64,000 bases of DNA from a virus, in the IMG/VR virus record IMGVR_UViG_3300025413_001414, positions 1-64,000 of that record. One strand, written 5' to 3'. Both the position numbers and the translations under genes were made by a program. The notes beneath the pieces are model-generated. The model did not search any database. It saw only the letters and a program-made list of their open reading frames with translations, and was not told the DNA's origin. Of the stretch, positions 16,280-54,711 are shown one piece after another (position 1 is the first letter of the stretch; the number at the start of each line of letters is the position of its first letter).

Positions 16280-17686
16280 ATGATTAAAAAATATTTAGAA
16301 TTTTTAAAAGAGGCTAAAGAAGAAAAAAGCTATTACAAACCAACTAATTTAATACAAGAGTTGTGTGTTGGTATGCTTTTAATTAATAACAGTTTCTTAG
16401 ATAATATCTTAGATAAAGGATTAAAAGCTAGATATTCAGAAAATTCACAAGTGTTTTTAACAGATTTAAAAAATCTTTTATTTGCTAAAAATAGATTACA
16501 CTTAGGCAAATTTATAGGTAATGAATGTGTATCTGAAGACGAGCCATCAAAAGTAAATGGTTTATTTGAATCAGTTTCGTTTAATATAGAAGACGATTGG
16601 AATAAACTAGTTAATGCTAGATTAATTGCCAGAAATATTATTGATAAGTTGTTACCAGATGAAAAAGTTACTGAAGACAGAGTTAAACATGTTTTTTGGA
16701 TAGGTCCTAACAAAGATGAAGATCACCAAGAAGACATGGTTGTTGAACTTTCAGATGGTAGACAATATTCTTTTTATTTAAATAAGAACTTATCTTCTTC
16801 TAAAACTGCAAGTTTTAACACATTTGCTGATGATTTAATTGGTAATGAAATTGATAAATTATATGGTCCTGAATATATTGCAAAATGGAATAAACTAGTT
16901 CAACAATGGGTTAGGACTATTTATGATAATGCTAATAAGAATGTTCAAGTACATATCGAAAAATTTATTGATGAAGATAGAATTGATTCTTTAGATTGGT
17001 TTAGATATTTTGAAATTCAACACAGAGACCCAAGATACAAACATCTTGGTGAATATATCAAAGAATTTGATAAAAACATTTTATATTTTTCTGATTTGAT
17101 GTCTGAAATTTGGAAACATCGTGATATGTGTTTCATGGATGTTGAGAGGGTTTATAATGAATGGGAAGAAACTAAAATATTTATTTTAAATTCTAAGATA
17201 TTAGAACATTTATTAACTGAATCATTGACTAAGAATAATATAGATGATATTAAGAAATTAGATGATGGGTTCAAATTAGCAGAAGGCACTGTTAAGATGA
17301 AATTGGTTAAGACTATTGTTGAAAAAATGGGATGCTCTGAAAGATATACTTATTATTTAGGTAATAATGGTAATATATTTAATCAAATTCCTTCTAGAGA
17401 TTTCTTTAGAAGCATCTATAACGATTTAACAGTTAAGTTTGACTATCATGTTAAATTCTTAGTAGAAGAGGAAGAGGAAAATAATGATTTTAATATTAAA
17501 ATATCGGTCTTGTTGGATAATGATGTATTAATTAAGTTTAATATACTGGTTAAATTTGCTGGTGGTGACATTAGTTCCAAGCTAAGCGCTAAATATTTTT
17601 TTCATCTTAGTGATGACTTTAACTATAGGGTATCAAACATAGAAAAGTCTGAATCAGAAAATGAATTATCTACCCAGAAAACCTAG
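16280..17686 (+). CDS. Hypothetical protein with N-terminal tag
   Basis: 468 aa; MIKKYLEFLKE. Confidence 0.7.
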   Translation: MIKKYLEFLKEAKEEKSYYKPTNLIQELCVGMLLINNSFLDNILDKGLKARYSENSQVFLTDLKNLLFAKNRLHLGKFIGNECVSEDEPSKVNGLFESVSFNIEDDWNKLVNARLIARNIIDKLLPDEKVTEDRVKHVFWIGPNKDEDHQEDMVVELSDGRQYSFYLNKNLSSSKTASFNTFADDLIGNEIDKLYGPEYIAKWNKLVQQWVRTIYDNANKNVQVHIEKFIDEDRIDSLDWFRYFEIQHRDPRYKHLGEYIKEFDKNILYFSDLMSEIWKHRDMCFMDVERVYNEWEETKIFILNSKILEHLLTESLTKNNIDDIKKLDDGFKLAEGTVKMKLVKTIVEKMGCSERYTYYLGNNGNIFNQIPSRDFFRSIYNDLTVKFDYHVKFLVEEEEENNDFNIKISVLLDNDVLIKFNILVKFAGGDISSKLSAKYFFHLSDDFNYRVSNIEKSESENELSTQKT

Positions 17687-36496: not shown

Positions 36497-37132
36497 TTAT
36501 CCTTTAATAACTTCTACGTTTTTCACAGCGATTACAGGTTTAACTTCTTCTACAATATTGTAGATTTCCATATCAGCCTCTTGAGAGTAATCCTTCAGCT
36601 TATCGATTGTACCTTTAGCCACACTGAAAGAAACAACGGCTTTAACAATCTTTTCTTTATCATCTTCATCAATTTCATCACAAGCCTCAATCAATTGAGA
36701 AAGAATTTCACCATATTTATCAACCATTTCACTATCAAATGAGAAGCTCGTTTTTTCTTCAACAGCAGCTTCACCGAAGGTTTCAGTCAAATACTTAGCC
36801 CTATCTTCGTTGATAGAAATATACTTATCAGAAGGTACGAACATCATTTGAGCCGTATCCAAACCAGATTTAGCCTCCAACATGATAGAACCTGGATTTT
36901 TGCTGGTTTTATCATATACTTTAGACCACTCAACCTTACCAATTTCTTTTACTTCATCAGAAATCATATCAGCCTCGGCCTTATCACGCTTCATGTTATC
37001 TTGAAGCTCTTGAAGCTTTTGAATTTTATCGAAGAAATCAGCATCTTTCACTTTAACACGAACTTTTTCATCTTTCGCTTTAGTTGTTTTAGCGGGAGCC
37101 GACTTTTTAGCTTTTGCAAATAAATTAGCCAT
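36497..37132 (-). CDS. Hypothetical early protein
   Basis: 211 aa; own TATCTTTG promoter at 37170-77. Confidence 0.7.
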   Translation of the reverse strand: MANLFAKAKKSAPAKTTKAKDEKVRVKVKDADFFDKIQKLQELQDNMKRDKAEADMISDEVKEIGKVEWSKVYDKTSKNPGSIMLEAKSGLDTAQMMFVPSDKYISINEDRAKYLTETFGEAAVEEKTSFSFDSEMVDKYGEILSQLIEACDEIDEDDKEKIVKAVVSFSVAKGTIDKLKDYSQEADMEIYNIVEEVKPVIAVKNVEVIKG

Positions 37133-37211
37133 AATAATAAGTTTTAAGTTTTTTGATTGATTTGTTTCACAAAGATACGAACTTTTTCAGAAACCACCTA
37201 ATTTTTTATTT

Positions 37212-37249
37212 AGAAATGACATGCTAAATACACCATACCCTTCATTTCT
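37212..37249 (-). ncRNA. Hairpin RNA motif copy 3 (own promoter)
   Basis: AGAAAUGA-AGGGUAUGGUGUAUUUAGCAUG-UCAUUUCU; promoter at 37266-73. Confidence 0.55.
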
Positions 37250-37299
37250 CTCGTTCTTTGTTACACAAAGATACGACAAATTTCCGAAACCACCAAATA

Positions 37300-37431
37300 A
37301 AAATTCCCCTCGTATAGAGAGGAATTCTTATACCAAAACAAACAGTTATGAGACTAAAGTGACGTGCCAGATACACTATACCTTTCACTTTGTAAATGAC
37401 GTGCCAGATACACTATACCTTTCATTTACAA
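37300..37431 (-). ncRNA. Small RNA with two tandem copies of an unknown hairpin motif
   Basis: 28-nt direct repeat 37360-87 / 37397-424 with different closing stems; promoter at 37434-41; terminator-like hairpin ~37300-37327. Confidence 0.6.
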
Positions 37432-37472
37432 TACAAAGATACAGCAAGATTTTGTAACCACCAAATTTATTT

Positions 37473-38108
37473 TTATTCAAACCAAGTCACTTTTCCAGTA
37501 AGAATATCATATACAGATCCAACTACTCTTACTTGATTTGTATTTACAAGATTATTAATAACTGGTTTAGAATTTTTGAGACTATCTACATTTGAAGTTA
37601 CATTACATTTGATTGCTTCATAAATAAAATTACTATCAGTCTTTTTAACTTTCTTAGTAGATTGTTGAATTTTCTCAATAAGAACTTGAATATGATTGTC
37701 AAACTTACTATTTGAGTTGACCGCTGCAGTAACCGCACCACAACTAGTATGGCCCATTATAACAATTAGATTAGTATGTAGATTCAAAATAGCATACTCT
37801 ATACTTGATAAGTTATCATCATTTATAACATTGCCAGCAACTCTAATTACAAAAAGTTCTCCAAGACCTTTATTAAATATTATTTCTGGAGAAACTCTTG
37901 AGTCAGCGCAAGTAATAATAACAGCTTTAGGATTTTGACCTTTAGATAAAAAAAGTCTGGTTAACGAATCTCGATTTTTACTGCTAAATAATCCAGAAGT
38001 ATATTCATTATTTCCAGATTTTAACCAAGTTAGAAGTGAATCATTTTTAGATTGTGAGAAACTTAAATTACTAATTAAAAGTAATAAAATAAGGATAAAA
38101 TTTTTCAT
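37473..38108 (-). CDS. Beta-carbonic anhydrase with signal peptide
   Basis: CADSRV, GELFVIRVAGN, GHTSCGAV; MKNFILILLLLISNLSFS|Q. Confidence 0.92.
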   Translation of the reverse strand: MKNFILILLLLISNLSFSQSKNDSLLTWLKSGNNEYTSGLFSSKNRDSLTRLFLSKGQNPKAVIITCADSRVSPEIIFNKGLGELFVIRVAGNVINDDNLSSIEYAILNLHTNLIVIMGHTSCGAVTAAVNSNSKFDNHIQVLIEKIQQSTKKVKKTDSNFIYEAIKCNVTSNVDSLKNSKPVINNLVNTNQVRVVGSVYDILTGKVTWFE

Positions 38109-41967: not shown

Positions 41968-43143
41968 TCATATAATTTCTTTAAATTTTTCAATTTCTAA
42001 TCTCTTTATTTCCTTACCTAATTCAGCACCTTTGAATCCTTGTTTCATTAACTCTTCAGCTGAAACAGATGGTTTGTATTTTATAAAAGCCAAATGAGTT
42101 GCATCATTTATTTGATTTATTTTATACCAATCTAAGATAACTTCATCACTAACTCTCGCAACTGTTCTCTTTTTATACATTTCTGTAACATCATCTACTT
42201 TAAAATCTAAAAGAGATATCAAGAAAACTATCCTTCTAGCCATATCCACTTCAATTTTACAATCTTGAACTAACTTATCTAATATATTTTTGTTTTCTTT
42301 TAACAAATTAGCTAAGTAAACTTCTAAATATTTAGAATCTCTGATATCAGTATTGATTTTAAAGCCAGGTAGAATTTCTTCCCATAATCCGAATTTAGTC
42401 AATAGATTTAAATATTCTGAAAAATCTTTGGCTTGTTTGAAAGCTTTTTTAAGCTCATCCCAAATTCTCTCTTGTGATACATCATCTTTTGGACTTATAC
42501 CTCTTAATCTATTATCTTTTCTTATGGCTTGATCCGTTTTAGAATCAATCTTACCACCAGTTCTTGTGGCAAACCTCAAAATTCTAAGGATTCTTAGACG
42601 ATCTTCTATAAATCTCTTATTAGCATCACCTACTGCTCTAACTATACCATTTTTTATATCATCAACACCACCAACTAAATCAACTATCTGTTTGTTTTTA
42701 ATGTCATAGAATAGAGCATTCATAGTCAGGTCTCTTCTATTACAATCATCTTCAATAGTTACATCACCACCTACTTCAACTTTTTTTTCATCGCCTTTCG
42801 TATCTCTACCACCAGAAATATCCCTTCTATAAGAAGCAATTTCATAACCGCCTGGTTCATCTTTTGTATAGACTCTTAATACACCAAAATTTTTACCTTG
42901 TTCATCAGAAATATTGAATTCTTTTAATATTTCTTTTGATTCATTAGGAAGAGCATTTGTTACCAAATCATAATCTTTTGGTTCTATACCTTGTATGAAA
43001 TCTCTAACTGCACCACCGACTAAAAAGATGTCTTTACCTGCTTTAATATAAGCATTTGATATGTCTATAATATCATTTGGTAGAGGAATTTCTGTTGAGA
43101 TTTTATTCTCATTTATAAATTGTCTATATCTTTTAATTTTCAT
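41968..43143 (-). CDS. cca: Class II tRNA nucleotidyltransferase (CCA-adding-like) with N-terminal tag
   Basis: [35 protein letters not shown]; [12 protein letters not shown]. Confidence 0.88.
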
Positions 43144-43611
43144 TTTGGTTCATTTTTTTCTTTCTTTCTATCCAAGCAAGTTTCATTTTTAACTTGTGTT
43201 CTTCTGATTTTGGTTTACCTTTTCTTATCTCTGATAGCTTCTTTTTTGTTTCTTCGAATAACTTTTTACCTTTTTTTGATTGAGATAATTTCATTTTTGC
43301 TTCTTCTTACATAGGAATTCCCTTATTCCAAGATTTTGTTCCTTTTTTAGTTTTGGAAATTTTGTCTTTTGTGTTGTTTGAGTGCTTCTTACCATAAAAA
43401 CTATTTTTTTACCTAACTTTGATTCTGATTTCTTTTTCCTAGTATCTTCTGGTTCTATCCTACCTGTCAATGCTTTAGATATTTTACTTTTTGTTTCTTC
43501 TGAAAGAGTGTCGACATATTTTGGATGATTTTGTCCTGCAGATGTTGATCCTATGTAGAATTTAGGTAATTTATCACCACTATAAGTAACTAAGTATGTA
43601 ACATATTTCAT
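43133..43611 (-). pseudogene. Degenerate GIY-YIG/NUMOD3 endonuclease
   Basis: YVTY...FYIGSTS then directly NUMOD3-like SEETKSKIS repeats; core apparently deleted and frameshifted. Confidence 0.7.
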
Positions 43612-43624
43612 ATGTAAATATAAA

Positions 43625-43863
43625 TTAAAATTTTAATATATATAAATTAATTAGTTCTAAAACTTCATCTGGAGTAGCATCAGTGCATAAGTCAAAATCC
43701 TTTGGTCTCTCATTATTTAGAAAGTCTCTAACCGCACCACCTACTACAAACAATTTTTTATGATGTTGTTTGAACAATTGATGTAAATCTTTAACAGATT
43801 GTGTAATAATATTCCACATATCACTTTTACTTTCTAAAAATTCATTGTATTTAGTATTATCAT
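43625..43863 (-). pseudogene. N-terminal fragment of a second nucleotidyltransferase
   Basis: [24 protein letters not shown] then stops; ATG at 43863 is one base out of frame with TKYNEFLES. Confidence 0.8.
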
Positions 43864-43952
43864 CTTGCAAATGTAGTCAAAATTTTAATATATATGGACA
43901 AAGAAGATCAGGTCGTGGATATTTTAATGGTGTAAAAACTAATATATAAGTA

Positions 43953-44195
43953 ATGAGACATATAAAACTATTTGAGGATTTTAAACAAAAAAATATCACA
44001 ACTGATGATATAATTGAATGTATAAATAATGGTGGAGTTTTATATGCAACTATTATTAAAAATTTTCCAGATAATGATCCAGAAATACCATTAAATCCAG
44101 TAAGTGTGGATAATGAAGGAACAGTAACGGTAGAATTAGATGGGAAAAACTATGAGGTTGAATTAAGACATGTAGATAAAATAGAGTGGAGATAA
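43953..44195 (+). CDS. Small protein with N-terminal tag
   Basis: MRHIKLFEDF; TAATATATA upstream. Confidence 0.7.
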   Translation: MRHIKLFEDFKQKNITTDDIIECINNGGVLYATIIKNFPDNDPEIPLNPVSVDNEGTVTVELDGKNYEVELRHVDKIEWR

Positions 44196-44217
44196 TAATA
44201 AAAATAATAAATTAAAT

Positions 44218-44565
44218 ATGGAACTTTTAACTAAATCTGGTGGTTCAGTTGAGCTTGTTGTAAGTAAATCGAGTTTAATTGGAACGAGATTAATATTAAA
44301 TATAGACCAAAGTGCTAACATCAAAAATGGTGAAGGTGAGGCAGCAATTGCTTTAACCTCGGATGAATGTAAAGAATTGATAGCTGGTCTAAATGAATTT
44401 ATTAGATTATTAGAAGGTCAGGATTACGTGCTTACTGCAAAAAGTGTAGTTGATTTAATAGCTCAACCTGAAGTACAAGAAGTTATGAAAAAGTTAGAAG
44501 ATGAAGGTAAGATTAAAAAATTAGAAATAAAAGAAGTACCATTAAGCGCTAGATTAATGAGATAA
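44218..44565 (+). CDS. Hypothetical protein
   Basis: 115-aa ORF. Confidence 0.6.
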   Translation: MELLTKSGGSVELVVSKSSLIGTRLILNIDQSANIKNGEGEAAIALTSDECKELIAGLNEFIRLLEGQDYVLTAKSVVDLIAQPEVQEVMKKLEDEGKIKKLEIKEVPLSARLMR

Positions 44566-44568
44566 CTG

Positions 44569-45261
44569 TTAAATTAATATTTTTTCAATCTTTTCATTCC
44601 TTAACTCAGCCATATCTATATCCCAATCACGTAAATAAGAGTGAGGTAGATGATCCCTAAATGATGGTATGAGTTTAGTCCAACGCTCATCTAAAGATGA
44701 ATATTCAAATCTTGCATTAAAGATAAATGAATGATATGGTATCTCAAAATCTTTATAAAAATCATCTAAGAAATTAACAAACTCTTCCAATATTTTTTGT
44801 TCTGAATCATAGTTTTCATTTTCATCATCAACCAATCCCAATTGACTATTTGGAGTATAAAAAGTTACTTCATCACGAACATCATCTAAGACATGTGAAT
44901 TACCAAAAGGTCTTTTATAACACATCATAATTGCATTATCTTTATAATCATCAAAGTCAAGGTATAAAAAACGAAGTAATCCCATATGATAATCCTTGAT
45001 ATTATGTTTATCTAAAGTGGATTGAGAGGGTTTACCTATCATACTAATGAACTGCATGCAAACAAATAAACGAGAGAGTTCTTCTATGTCTTTAATATGC
45101 GGATTATCTGATAGCTTCCAAACAAGTTGAGGACTATAATAGCTTGATTCTGATTTGCTAGAGACCAAACTATTTATCTTCTCAATATCACTATCTGTAA
45201 TAGAGAATTTTTGGTCTTTGACCAGTCCGTAATTTCCGTAAAAATAAGCTGAATTATACAT
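44569..45261 (-). CDS. Hypothetical protein with C-terminal tag
   Basis: LRNEKIEKILI*. Confidence 0.65.
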   Translation of the reverse strand: MYNSAYFYGNYGLVKDQKFSITDSDIEKINSLVSSKSESSYYSPQLVWKLSDNPHIKDIEELSRLFVCMQFISMIGKPSQSTLDKHNIKDYHMGLLRFLYLDFDDYKDNAIMMCYKRPFGNSHVLDDVRDEVTFYTPNSQLGLVDDENENYDSEQKILEEFVNFLDDFYKDFEIPYHSFIFNARFEYSSLDERWTKLIPSFRDHLPHSYLRDWDIDMAELRNEKIEKILI

Positions 45262-45275
45262 AAATTTTATTTAAA

Positions 45276-45470
45276 AACAACAGCCCCGTTACGGTAGTAA
45301 TCAGAGGTCCGGTCTTGTCGAAAGATAATTAGTCTTCCCCAGGTTAACCTGACTAAATCTGTTTAGACATCAGTGTAACGACTGACCAAAGTGAGTTTCA
45401 CTACCTACAAAGCTTTAAAACGGAGTATGAATCCCGTTGCATCATTGTTGTCCTACAGATAACTGTTGTT
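45276..45470 (-). ncRNA. Unassigned structured RNA (~195 nt)
   Basis: GC-richer intergenic island; terminal stem AACAACAGUU/GGCUGUUGUU; GGUAGUGA/UUACUACC; several internal hairpins; TATATTTG promoter immediately upstream (45475-82). Confidence 0.65.
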
Positions 45471-45498
45471 ATCACAAATATACAAAATTAAATGAAAT

Positions 45499-45529
45499 AA
45501 AAAAATAGGAACCGAAGTTCCTATTTTTT
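45499..45529 (-). terminator. Intrinsic terminator after the VWA gene
   Basis: AAAAAATAGGAAC-CGAA-GTTCCTATTTTT (UUCG loop on the - strand). Confidence 0.8.
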
Positions 45530-47048
45530 ACTTATCATCATTTTCCAAAACAATCTGTTTTACTTTACCATTTGAACGAGCGATTGGAACTTTAGTACCA
45601 ACAGATATCATCAAGACATTACCTTTAACTTTTGACAAATCAAGTGAGTCAGTATAACCATCTGTTAACAGAATTGTTGCGTATTGGTTGAAGTGTTCTA
45701 CTACATAGTCAAATCCAGTTTGCATTATTGTACCTCCAAGTCCGCGAATTGGAACTTTATCCAATCCTTTCTTATTCTTGATATTTTTAACCCATTTGAT
45801 TTCAGTATCACTTTCAATCAAATTGATTTCAATATCGTTACGATATACATAAGAAAGAACTCTTTCAAAAGTGCCAGATCCACCCATACTTCCTGATGTA
45901 TCAAGAATAACGTTAATCTTTGTTTTAATCTTACGGTTACCTTTCAAACCAGGCACTTGACGACGATTAGGTTTAACAATAGTCTTTTGTTTTTTAGTAC
46001 CAAAGATTTCATTAGCGATTGAACGCTTGATATGTTTCAAATAATCTTTCCTTTTCTTACGAAGCTTATTCAAAGTCTGTTCGATGTTTCCTACTTGAAG
46101 GCCACGAGCCTGTAATCTTTCCATCACATCTTTTACCATAGACTCTCTCATTTCCTCCGGAATTTCATCACCCATGTGGACGTCCATGTATTGACCTTGA
46201 GTATTCTCCATGTTGTCAAAGATTTGATCCAATGACCAAGTATCAATAGTTCCTTTGTCATTTTTCGGATCTTTACCATAAGGGCCATAAGAAGATTTAC
46301 CTTGAGAATCTTTACCATCTTGACCACCACTTCCACCACAATCTGGACAAGGTTCGCCTTTACCATGTTGATGACCTTGACCATTTTGATTCTGACCATT
46401 CTGATCTTGTTGACCATCTTGACCACTCTGACCTTGACCATCTTGTGGCTGAGCTTCACCTTGATCTTGTTGAGGTTGACCTTGTTGATTCTTTTGACCC
46501 TCTTGTTTTTGACCAGTACCGTTACAAGTCTTACACTGGCCGTTTTTCTTTTGTTTCTTTTTGTGCTCGTCTTGTTTATCACGAAGCCACTCATAAACTT
46601 CTTCAAAGATTAATTTACCAGTATATTCTTTAGGAATAAACAAAGCCATGTTCTTACCATTTTCATCCTTAGGAATTTCAATGAAAGAATTTGGAATATC
46701 TTCCCAGATGATATGATTGATAATCATATCTTGAGCGATATTAGAAAGTTGATGGTCGTATTGACCAGTAATAGTACGTTTAGGGTGATTCCACAAAAGG
46801 TGGAAATCTTCGTGTAGAGTAATGAAGTTAACCTCTTTTTGAGACATCTTCTCCAAGAACTCTGAATTGTAATAGAATTGCATACCCTTTGCAGTCATAT
46901 TTACACCACAAGTAGGTACTGCTTTATTATTTTCGTGGAAGTTAATGAAAAGATTGAACGTTCCATAATATGGTAGGTTCACTTTTGTATCAATCAACAT
47001 AATCTGTATAGATTCCATTAATTTCTCGTGAATGTTCTTTAATTGCAT
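45528..47048 (-). CDS. DUF2201-type metallopeptidase + VWA protein (MoxR partner)
   Basis: LHEDFH (HExxH), NIAQD..IN; DTSGS, GGT, LTDGY MIDAS motifs; promoter at 47072-79. Confidence 0.87.
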   Translation of the reverse strand: MQLKNIHEKLMESIQIMLIDTKVNLPYYGTFNLFINFHENNKAVPTCGVNMTAKGMQFYYNSEFLEKMSQKEVNFITLHEDFHLLWNHPKRTITGQYDHQLSNIAQDMIINHIIWEDIPNSFIEIPKDENGKNMALFIPKEYTGKLIFEEVYEWLRDKQDEHKKKQKKNGQCKTCNGTGQKQEGQKNQQGQPQQDQGEAQPQDGQGQSGQDGQQDQNGQNQNGQGHQHGKGEPCPDCGGSGGQDGKDSQGKSSYGPYGKDPKNDKGTIDTWSLDQIFDNMENTQGQYMDVHMGDEIPEEMRESMVKDVMERLQARGLQVGNIEQTLNKLRKKRKDYLKHIKRSIANEIFGTKKQKTIVKPNRRQVPGLKGNRKIKTKINVILDTSGSMGGSGTFERVLSYVYRNDIEINLIESDTEIKWVKNIKNKKGLDKVPIRGLGGTIMQTGFDYVVEHFNQYATILLTDGYTDSLDLSKVKGNVLMISVGTKVPIARSNGKVKQIVLENDDK

Positions 47049-47180
47049 ACGGTATATATTATTTATTTATACAAAGATACAAAATATTTATGAAACTAAA
47101 AAATATTTTACTTAAAAGTCAACTTTACATATTAGGGATAATGTAATTATCCATATATAGATATAAACAAAGTTAATAAA

Positions 47181-54471: not shown

Positions 54472-54488
54472 ATTTTATATTTAATATT

Positions 54489-54711
54489 ATAGTGACGATT
54501 ATACCCGCGGTTCTGTTTTATTCTATCATTTATCTCACCTTTCGGTGGCCTATTAAGGCTGCCTCAACCCGACTATCGTTGGGAAACCGACACCCTAAGT
54601 CTGTATGAGTTGCTACTTCTTTGGTCTAACGACTGATTAGGTCTTCCAAATTAGGTTTTGTAGCCGCGAAGTTCCTCTAGCATTTGCCAGCGATAGATCA
54701 TCCATCACTAT
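54489..54711 (-). ncRNA. rnpB: RNase P RNA, minimal (catalytic domain only)
   Basis: GAGGAACU-U-CGCGG / ACAGAACCGCGGGU (P4 with bulged U); P1 10 bp, P2 7 bp, P3; P5 CUAC/GUAG-CAA; P6 AAACC/GGUUU; P15 with GGU; P18 CACC-GAAA-GGUG; AGAUAAAUGA. Confidence 0.9.

What the first reader, a model, noticed from the sequence alone, without database searches (positions are those of the whole stretch)
45276..45482. Unassigned ~195-nt structured RNA with a cloverleaf-like head
Seen: starts right after a TATATTTG promoter and downstream of a terminator. It has a 10-bp end-to-end stem, hairpin AACGG(G)A-UUCAUAC-UCCGUU, helices GGUAGUGA/UUACUACC and GGUC/GACC, then three hairpins (CAGU/ACUG, CUAAA/UUUAG, CAGG-UUAA-CCUG). 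It shares UCAGUCGUUA with the stub replacing the RNase P S-domain. Inference: a tRNA-mimic, Y-RNA-like or 6S-like RNA; more speculatively a trans partner or substrate of the minimal RNase P.
Basis: partly seen in the sequence, partly recalled or inferred. Interest (0 to 1): 0.7.

Follow-up and report, generated by a model that had tools for sequence, protein, structure and literature searches.

The report
Orphan structured RNA leader in phage
A roughly 200-base, unusually GC-rich non-coding stretch in a large uncultured phage of Bacteroidota sits behind a host-type promoter and folds into a branched structure, but it matches no known RNA family, has no relatives I could find, and is most simply the structured front end of the transcript of the next gene.

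Summary
The sequence features are real. On the minus strand, a bidirectional terminator (45529-45500) is followed by a TATATTTG promoter (45482-45475) and about 198 nt of ORF-free RNA (45470-45273). A 230-aa gene (P0001) starts 11 nt after that.

For a structured RNA:
- GC is 41%, against a 28% genome mean and 30% in the adjacent ORF.
- The fold gives -53.6 kcal/mol, z -2.3, and the sense strand is more stable than the antisense.
- The promoter closely resembles real promoters in Chitinophagaceae, the likely host family.

- Nothing supports a tRNA-mimic, Y-RNA or 6S reading: Rfam gives no hit at E<=10, ARAGORN finds nothing, and the record has no Ro/TROVE gene.
- The RNase P link does not hold. 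The shared 10-mer is at chance level and is not conserved in relatives. Two related phages carry the mini RNase P without this RNA.

The RNA and P0001 lie in a 1.05-kb block that the closest relative lacks. P0001 homologues elsewhere have a small ORF upstream, not this RNA. No homologue was found, so covariation cannot be tested, and expression could not be checked.

Best reading: an orphan structured 5' leader of an accessory early-gene cassette, possibly released as a stable RNA. Modest interest.

The parts
45500..45529 (.). Bidirectional intrinsic terminator (13-bp stem, UUCG loop, T-runs on both strands). It ends the upstream DUF2201/VWA gene (45528-47048, minus). On the plus strand it would also end transcripts from the convergent genes.
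   Evidence: I3; sequence
45475..45507 (-). Host-type (Bacteroidota) promoter. The -7 element TATATTTG is at 45482-45475, preceded by TTTTTTTATTTCATTTAATTTTG. The expected start is about 45470.
   Evidence: It shares 24 of 31 positions with the promoter of the DUF2201 gene at 47079. 53 of 401 Chitinophagaceae genomes have 80-100% matches to this stretch. Two orthologous matches (L181, L183) lie 14 nt before a protein start codon. The transcription start itself is inferred, not shown.
45273..45470 (-). Structured RNA domain of about 198 nt (41% GC), with no ORF of 25 aa or more.
45458..45473 (-). Perfect 6-bp inverted repeat GATAAC-AACA-GTTATC right at the expected transcription start.
   Evidence: MFE of the 213-nt stretch; sequence. 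Function inferred.
45419..45438 (-). Hairpin AACGGG-AUUCAUAC-UCCGUU (RNA nt 33-52).
   Evidence: present in the MFE, centroid and all listed suboptimal folds
45293..45405 (-). Core domain. Helix GGUAGUGA (45405-45398) pairs with UUACUACC (45300-45293). A 7x7 internal loop and helix UUUGGUC/GACC follow. These close a multibranch head with hairpins CUAAA-CAGA-UUUAG, CAGG-UUAA-CCUG and GAAGA-CUAAUUA-UCUUU.
45273..45290 (-). 3' strand AACGGGGCUGUUGUUUUU. It can close the domain in two registers: with AACAACAGUU (45470-45461, -50.2 kcal/mol) or with GGACAACA (45454-45447, -53.6 kcal/mol). It ends in a U5 run with no local terminator hairpin.
45262..45272 (-). A/U-only spacer (AAAUAAAAUUU) before the ATG. 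It stays unpaired in the fold that includes the start codon. An in-frame TAA lies 12 nt upstream of the ATG.
   Evidence: 215-nt fold
44569..45261 (-). P0001, a 230-aa acidic protein (pI 4.76) of a conserved phage family with the invariant motif KRPFGN (consensus KRPFGNSHV). It has no known family or fold and ends in the RxxKIxxIL tail.
44483..45533 (-). A 1.05-kb block (terminator, promoter, RNA, P0001 and a new C-terminus for the convergent 115-aa ORF). In the closest relative G001 about 100 bp stand in its place.
45376..45385 (-). 10-mer UCAGUCGUUA, shared with the mini RNase P stub at 54627-54636.
   Evidence: Real, but chance-level and not conserved in the G001 and G004 stubs.

Best explanation
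The stretch is the structured 5' part of an early transcript made by the host RNA polymerase from a Bacteroidota-type promoter.

Transcription would start near 45470, run through a roughly 198-nt GC-rich branched RNA domain, and continue into the 230-aa acidic gene P0001. There is no local terminator hairpin, and the A/U-rich start-codon region is left unpaired.

RNA and gene lie together in an accessory block of about 1.05 kb that the nearest relative lacks. I read the RNA as a cis-acting leader that stabilises, insulates or tunes expression of P0001. It may be cut off as a stable by-product, as the mini RNase P RNA of this phage must also be released from between two ORFs.

Shown: the anatomy, the composition, the promoter likeness and the presence/absence of the block.

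Inferred: transcription, the fold in vivo, and any regulatory effect.
For: - Layout: terminator, then promoter, then the ORF-free stretch, then the ATG, all on one strand.
- The promoter resembles the promoter of the neighbouring gene and genuine Chitinophagaceae promoters.
- The TAnnTTTG motif usually lies 4-50 nt before a start codon in this genome; here it lies 213 nt before one, so the extra RNA is an exception.
- P0001 has no other promoter-like motif, and the upstream terminator isolates it.
- The leader is 41% GC, P0001 30%, the genome 28%. GC-enriched long intergenic regions in AT-rich genomes are enriched for structured RNAs (PMC2704228).
- z is -2.29, and the sense strand folds better than the antisense.
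- The start codon stays unpaired.
- RNA and P0001 lie together in the block absent from G001.
- The mini RNase P RNA likewise abuts its flanking ORFs with no terminator of its own.
Against: - No homologue was found, so there is no covariation support. Searches covered G001-G005, 43 related loci, 151 Chitinophagaceae genomes, the INPHARED phage collection and IMG/VR 15-mer scans.
- P0001 homologues in about 25 other loci have an overlapping ORF of about 100 aa or a short AT-rich gap upstream, not a structured leader. The RNA is therefore not a conserved regulator of this gene family.
- Stability is unremarkable once GC is regressed out.
- Expression could not be tested.
- The U5 run after the closing helix leaves room for a discrete RNA.
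Confidence: 0.4

Rival explanations
1. It is an independent, stable, trans-acting small RNA of about 195 nt. It is made early from its own host-type promoter and ends at the U5 run or is cut out by processing. It would act on a host or phage factor as a decoy, sponge or anti-defence RNA. P0001 would be expressed by read-through.
For: It has its own promoter directly after a terminator. A closing helix brings the 5' and 3' ends together immediately before a U5 run. It shows a GC-rich compact fold. The phage has other small-RNA loci behind the same promoter type and an RNase P RNA. P0001 homologues elsewhere do without it, so it need not serve that gene.
Against: There is no local terminator hairpin, only a long-range helix before the U run. 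No homologue, known family or partner protein was found. Expression was not tested.
Confidence: 0.25
2. It is not a functional RNA. It is a non-coding spacer or recombination scar brought in with the P0001 block, or a DNA-level protein-binding site. Its GC content reflects foreign origin, and its fold is what 41% GC gives by chance.
For: It is an orphan with no conservation anywhere. The region is a rearrangement hotspot: every relative has different genes after the DUF2201 gene, and there is a truncated 680-aa gene plus a CCA-enzyme fragment with an HNH gene nearby. The record carries another GC-rich foreign piece at 75.7-76.2 kb. The GC-regressed MFE is not an outlier. The antisense z of -1.87 is not far from the sense z.
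Against: P0001 in the same block is 30% GC, so the GC rise is confined to the ORF-free part. Other ORF-free gaps are mostly 20-30% GC. No match was found in 401 (DNA) or 151 (model) genomes of the likely host family beyond the promoter. The promoter needs something to transcribe, and 213 nt is far beyond the usual distance. The sense strand is 7 kcal/mol more stable than the antisense.
Confidence: 0.25
3. It is an RNA partner of P0001, in a type III toxin-antitoxin-like layout of promoter, RNA, U-run and protein gene. Here an RNA would take the place that a small upstream protein has in other phages.
For: The layout resembles ToxIN-type operons. The RNA and gene lie together in the block absent from G001. 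In relatives a translationally coupled ORF of about 100 aa, from several unrelated families, occupies the RNA's position.
Against: There are no tandem repeats, which define type III antitoxins. P0001 is acidic (pI 4.76), has no nuclease-like fold and matches no defence or TA family. The upstream ORFs in relatives look like ordinary members of a set of small proteins that share a C-terminal tail, not dedicated partners.
Confidence: 0.05
4. It is a trans partner (a detached specificity domain) or a substrate of the phage's S-domain-less RNase P RNA.
For: An exact shared 10-mer lies on the same strand. The topology loosely recalls an S-domain: two stacked helices closing a junction with three hairpins. 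The same record holds a CCA-adding enzyme gene and the mini RNase P.
Against: Rfam RF00010 gives no local match to this RNA even at E<=10. The 10-mer is at chance level and is not conserved in the G001 and G004 stubs. There is no better-than-chance complementarity. G001 and G004 have the ribozyme but not this RNA. The RNA has no CCA and no acceptor/T-arm mimic.
Confidence: 0.03

Closest known systems
Long structured 5' leaders and cis-regulatory RNAs of bacterial and phage genes (riboswitch- or attenuator-type leaders; e.g. the phage-associated leader motifs in Rfam)
   Same: Position between the promoter and the start codon. GC-rich multi-helix fold in an AT-rich genome. Alternative pairings for the 3' strand. 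U-run at the end.
   Different: No Rfam leader or riboswitch matches. There is no local terminator/antiterminator pair. The RNA is not conserved upstream of homologous genes. No ligand or effector can be proposed.
Bacterial 6S RNA (Rfam RF00013)
   Same: Length of about 190 nt, with 5' and 3' ends paired. An early abundant RNA would make sense for a phage.
   Different: The fold is branched and has only a 7x7 internal loop instead of the large central bubble flanked by long helices. No Rfam hit at E<=10.
Bacterial Y RNA (YrlA) with Ro60/Rsr
   Different: No Rfam hit. No canonical T-loop. No TROVE/Ro60 gene in the 78.7-kb record. The neighbouring VWA protein is DUF2201, not Ro.
Specificity (S) domain of type A RNase P RNA (RF00010)
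   Same: Size of about 150-190 nt. Stacked helices lead to a junction with three hairpins. The same phage's RNase P lacks its S-domain.
   Different: No local match to RF00010. The conserved S-domain sequence blocks, as I recall them, are not evident. Relatives keep the mini ribozyme without this RNA.
Type III toxin-antitoxin loci (ToxIN-like)
   Same: The order promoter, non-coding RNA, U-run, protein gene, lying in a block that the nearest relative lacks.
   Different: The antitoxin RNAs are tandem repeats, and none are present here. P0001 is not a ToxN-like nuclease by family or fold search.

Membership tests
tRNA / tRNA-like element | Cloverleaf with a 7-bp acceptor stem and D, anticodon and T arms; T-loop UUCRANN; 3' CCA or discriminator | tested here: not met
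   ARAGORN finds nothing in the window or the whole record. No Rfam tRNA match at E<=10. Head loops are 4-8 nt. The one 7-nt loop is UUCAUAC, with U where A58 would be. The RNA contains no CCA (sequence).
tmRNA | tRNA-like domain from paired ends with a T-arm and CCA, plus a tag reading frame | tested here: not met
   ARAGORN in tmRNA mode finds nothing. No Rfam hit.
6S RNA (RF00013) | Covariance-model match; long rod with a large central bubble | tested here: not met
   No hit at E<=10. The MFE is branched, and its largest internal loop is 7x7 nt.
Y RNA / YrlA | Covariance-model match and a Ro-binding stem | tested here: not met
   No Rfam hit at E<=10.
Y RNA / YrlA | Companion Ro60 (TROVE) gene | tested here: inconclusive
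   PF05731 was not found in the 78.7-kb record. The record is a fragment (CheckV 16%), and the host could supply Ro.
RNase P RNA type A, S-domain (RF00010) | Local match to model positions of about 73-213, including the conserved J11/12 and CR II/III blocks | tested here: not met
   cmscan with permissive filters on 208 nt and on 551 nt lists no RF00010 match at E<=10. The same tool scores the mini ribozyme at 44.6 bits.
RNase P RNA partner (co-occurrence) | Present wherever the S-domain-less ribozyme is present | tested here: not met
   G001 and G004 have the ribozyme. A direct cmsearch of their complete records with model R1 gives nothing above 8.6 bits. Caveats: G001 is 86% and G004 52% complete, and R1 is a single-sequence model.
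Known riboswitch / T-box / leader families | Match to any Rfam cis-regulatory model | tested here: not met
   No hits at gathering threshold in the 64-kb window. No hits at E<=10 on the element.
Type III antitoxin RNA | Tandem direct repeats of about 34-36 nt upstream of the toxin gene | tested here: not met
   TRF and the repeat finder report none.
Generic structured ncRNA (any new family) | Compensatory base changes across homologues | not testable with these tools
Generic structured ncRNA (any new family) | Transcribed as a defined RNA | not testable with these tools

The most novel reading that the evidence does not exclude
The stretch is the founding member of a new class of phage early non-coding RNA. 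It would be a stable ~195-nt branched RNA made by the host polymerase in the first minutes of infection. It would lie with an acidic early protein in an accessory block that close relatives lack, and act in trans on a host factor, for example as a decoy against a defence or RNA-processing system.
Probability: 0.15. Interest if true: 0.6.

Novelty: new member of a known kind. Interest (0 to 1): 0.3.

Why it matters
If it is real, this large phage of freshwater Chitinophagaceae carries at least three kinds of non-coding RNA. These are a cut-down RNase P, small hairpin RNAs, and this branched RNA, all expressed from host-type promoters. That would make the phage a good system for studying RNA-based takeover in Bacteroidota, where long leaders and sRNAs are poorly understood.

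In itself, an orphan structured leader with no relatives and no expression data does not change any open question. The practical outcomes are a negative result for the RNase P, tRNA, Y-RNA and 6S ideas, and a clear list of what would settle the matter.

Tried and rejected
Homologue searches, all negative:
- blastn (distant mode) against 50,697 phage records.
- nhmmer and blastn against loci around DUF2201 homologues and around 43 P0001-family loci from IMG/VR and JGI metagenomes.
- BLAST and model R1 on five related jumbo-phage records. That tool's loose first pass also missed the known RNase P in the own genome, so I fetched the whole of G001 and G004 and ran cmsearch directly.
- Two 15-mer scans of IMG/VR gave only chance matches in unrelated contexts.
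- A conserved RNase P block found only G001 and G004, so there are no further close relatives in IMG/VR.
- Model R1 on 151 and DNA on 401 Chitinophagaceae genomes matched only the promoter.
- The scan's own earlier findings hold no look-alike in other genomes.

Coding readings rejected:
- No ORF above 24 aa lies in the gap.
- Reading TAG as a sense codon gives only a 63-aa plus-strand ORF overlapping the gap and none on the RNA strand, and the standard code already gives 94% coding in the window.
- The small proteins upstream of P0001 homologues show no tblastn similarity to the gap, so it is not their decayed remnant.

Other points:
- An 11-bp direct repeat (AGATAACTGTT at 44560-44570 and 45457-45467) brackets the RNA plus P0001. 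It does not coincide with the homology breakpoints against G001 (44482 and 45533), and a repeat of that length is not rare by chance in 1.3 kb. I do not call it a target-site duplication.
- A box C/D-like reading (AUGAUGC near the 5' end, CUGA near the 3' end) was considered and dropped. The boxes are not juxtaposed by the terminal stem, and the family is not bacterial.
- P0001 function: Pfam, PHROGs, NCBIfam, PADLOC and the ESM Atlas gave nothing. A confident AlphaFold model (pLDDT 89) has no Foldseek match, and the best VIA-align Z is 4.4.

Full report
**What the window is.** It is the first 64 kb of a 78.7-kb IMG/VR virus record. GC is about 28%. Under the standard code, ORFs of 100 aa or more cover about 94% of it. 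ARAGORN finds no tRNA in the whole record, and Rfam finds nothing at gathering threshold.

The nearest relatives in IMG/VR are jumbo phages of 130-280 kb. The promoter type is TAnnTTTG. A gene fragment near the record's end is 97% identical in protein to one from a Parafilimonas genome bin. Both point to Chitinophagaceae (Bacteroidota) as the host family.

**The observation.** The element reads on the minus strand.
- The DUF2201/VWA gene (47048-45528) ends in a strong UUCG-loop terminator at 45529-45500.
- TATATTTG lies at 45482-45475.
- About 198 nt follow (45470-45273) with no ORF longer than 24 aa.
- An 11-nt A/U spacer comes next, then the ATG (45261) of a 230-aa gene, P0001.

It also has a UUUGGUC/GACC helix and a multibranch head with small hairpins.

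The shared 10-mer with the RNase P stub is exact.

**Is it more than chance?**
- Folding z is -2.29 (5 of 200 shuffles) for the sense strand and -1.87 for the antisense. The bona fide mini RNase P RNA of the same genome scores only -0.64. Folding energy therefore neither proves nor disproves anything here.
- In a genome-wide regression of MFE on GC, the region is not an outlier.
- Composition is the stronger signal. The 198 nt are 41% GC, against 30% for P0001 next to it and 28% for the genome. The best 180-nt window, at 42.8%, is in the top 1.6%.
- Among 27 ORF-free gaps of 150 nt or more, only five are GC-rich. One of those is the RNase P RNA.
- In AT-rich genomes, long GC-enriched intergenic regions are enriched for structured RNAs (PMC2704228).

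**The promoter is credible.**
- The 31 nt ending in TATATTTG share 24 positions with the promoter of the neighbouring DUF2201 gene, whose motif lies 23 nt before its ATG.
- A DNA search of 401 Chitinophagaceae genomes matched this promoter stretch, and little else, in 53 genomes.
- The best matches read, for example, TTTTTTGATTTCATTTAAATCTGTATATTTG. Two orthologous ones (L181, L183) lie 14 nt before a protein start codon.
- In this phage the motif normally lies 4-50 nt before an ATG. Here it lies 213 nt before one. The extra RNA is therefore an exception that needs a reason.

**Known families.**
- Rfam with permissive filters gives no match at E<=10 on either strand of the element. On the wider 551 nt it gives only weak matches (E 0.04 and above), far below each family's gathering score. 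The top three, shown as alignments, rest largely on the terminator.
- The same tool recovers the mini RNase P at 54487-54709 with 44.6 bits, E 1.3e-12, with the S-domain missing.
- There is no tRNA or tmRNA, no TROVE gene and no tandem repeats.
- The tRNA-mimic, Y-RNA, 6S and type III antitoxin readings each fail a defining feature. An S-domain reading also fails the only test available.

**The RNase P link.**
- A local alignment of the two RNAs finds only the 13-nt stretch around the 10-mer, and 56 of 1000 shuffles score as well. The best antisense match, 8 nt, is matched or beaten in 695 of 1000 shuffles.
- G001 and G004 carry orthologous mini RNase P RNAs at 87% and 76% identity. In their stubs the 10-mer reads TAAGTCGTTA and CCAATCGTTT, so it is not conserved.
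- A covariance model built from the element (R1) and run directly over the complete G001 and G004 records finds nothing above 8.6 bits.
- The ribozyme therefore exists without this RNA, within the limits of 86% and 52% record completeness and a single-sequence model.

**Context.** Synteny with G001 is informative.
- There, the DUF2201 gene is followed at once by a bidirectional terminator and two convergent genes of 110 and 680 aa. These are homologous to the window's 115-aa and 80-aa ORFs.
- Homology to G001 stops at 45534 and resumes at 44482.
- The window therefore has an extra 1.05 kb: its own terminator, the promoter, the RNA, P0001 and a new C-terminus for the convergent ORF.
- Each of the other relatives has different genes at this point, so it is a variable spot.

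P0001 belongs to a conserved phage family: 28 homologues with the invariant motif KRPFGN (consensus KRPFGNSHV).
- It is acidic, pI 4.76.
- It models confidently (pLDDT 89).
- It matches no family or solved fold.

In about 25 other loci the homologue is preceded by an overlapping ORF of about 100 aa, from several unrelated families, or by a short AT-rich gap. It is never preceded by a GC-rich structured stretch. No sequence or model match to the RNA occurs there.

**Reading.** The simplest account is a structured 5' leader of an accessory early-gene cassette.
- The promoter has nothing else to drive.
- P0001 has no other promoter.
- No local terminator hairpin separates the RNA from the gene.
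- The start codon stays single-stranded.

A discrete stable RNA is not excluded. The closing helix sits directly before a U5 run, and the phage's RNase P RNA likewise lies between ORFs without a terminator of its own. A functionless spacer of foreign origin also remains possible, because nothing is conserved. I put these three at about 0.4, 0.25 and 0.25, with small weights on the antitoxin-like and RNase P ideas.

**Limits.** No homologue means no covariation test. Expression could not be examined. Those two gaps define the next steps.

Noticed in passing
window 41968-43870 (minus strand): CCA-adding enzyme region looks rearranged. A full 391-aa gene with the PolyA_pol head and RNA-binding domains lies at 41968-43143. 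Upstream of it are a 106-aa HNH/homing-endonuclease-like ORF (43291-43611) and an 81-aa ORF (43625-43870) that matches only the first 36 positions of the PolyA_pol head domain. This could be a duplicated N-terminal fragment left by endonuclease-mediated rearrangement, or a split gene.
   Followed up: partly
G000 75698-76159 (L058:11698-12159, plus strand) and the surrounding 75.6-76.5 kb: A segment of up to 59% GC (180-nt window) encodes a 153-aa C-terminal fragment of a 2-oxoacid:ferredoxin oxidoreductase-like protein (my reading of the sequence; not checked against any family). It is 97% identical in protein to a Parafilimonas (Chitinophagaceae) genome bin and 75-84% identical to many other Chitinophagaceae. 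This is either recent capture of host DNA or a chimeric assembly join. It is a host clue, and a warning about the record's right end.
   Followed up: partly
window 43953-44195 (plus) versus L002:5941-7983: The 80-aa ORF is 71% identical to a 79-aa stretch of a 680-aa protein of the relative G001. The gene appears truncated in this phage, next to the CCA fragment and HNH genes.
   Followed up: partly
loci L010, L011, L021, L022, L026, L027, L037, L038, L040, L041 (ORFs just upstream of P0001 homologues): Unrelated small proteins upstream of P0001 homologues, and P0001 itself, end in the same tail: R-x-x-[KR]-[IL]-x-x-[IL]-[LI], e.g. RERRINQILD, RDNKLEKILKK, LRNEKIEKILI. The tail is therefore shared across many phages, not only this one.
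   Followed up: partly
window 37120-37500 (minus strand): Promoters of the form TTTGGTGGTT-N-TATCTTTG are followed within a few nucleotides by short hairpins with a common core (AATGAAAGGTATAGTGTATCTGGCACGTCATT). This looks like a separate small-RNA locus. It has no sequence relation to the RNA studied here.
   Followed up: no
G004 17323-17549 (minus strand; L198): A GC-rich gap in the relative G004 contains a tRNA-like gene, with a T-arm GGGGTTCGAGTCCCC and acceptor-like ends. Relatives therefore seem to carry tRNA genes, although this 78.7-kb record has none. I did not run ARAGORN on it.
   Followed up: no
window 44218-45529, both strands: The convergent plus-strand genes (43953-44565) have no terminator of their own before 45500-45529. 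Their transcripts should therefore run antisense across P0001 and the RNA. That gives scope for sense/antisense interference over the whole cassette.
   Followed up: no
G001 1-1175 and 184549-185258: Both ends of the relative G001 have ORF-free stretches with up to 50-54% GC in a 29% GC genome. These could be host-like or foreign DNA, or special terminal regions.
   Followed up: no
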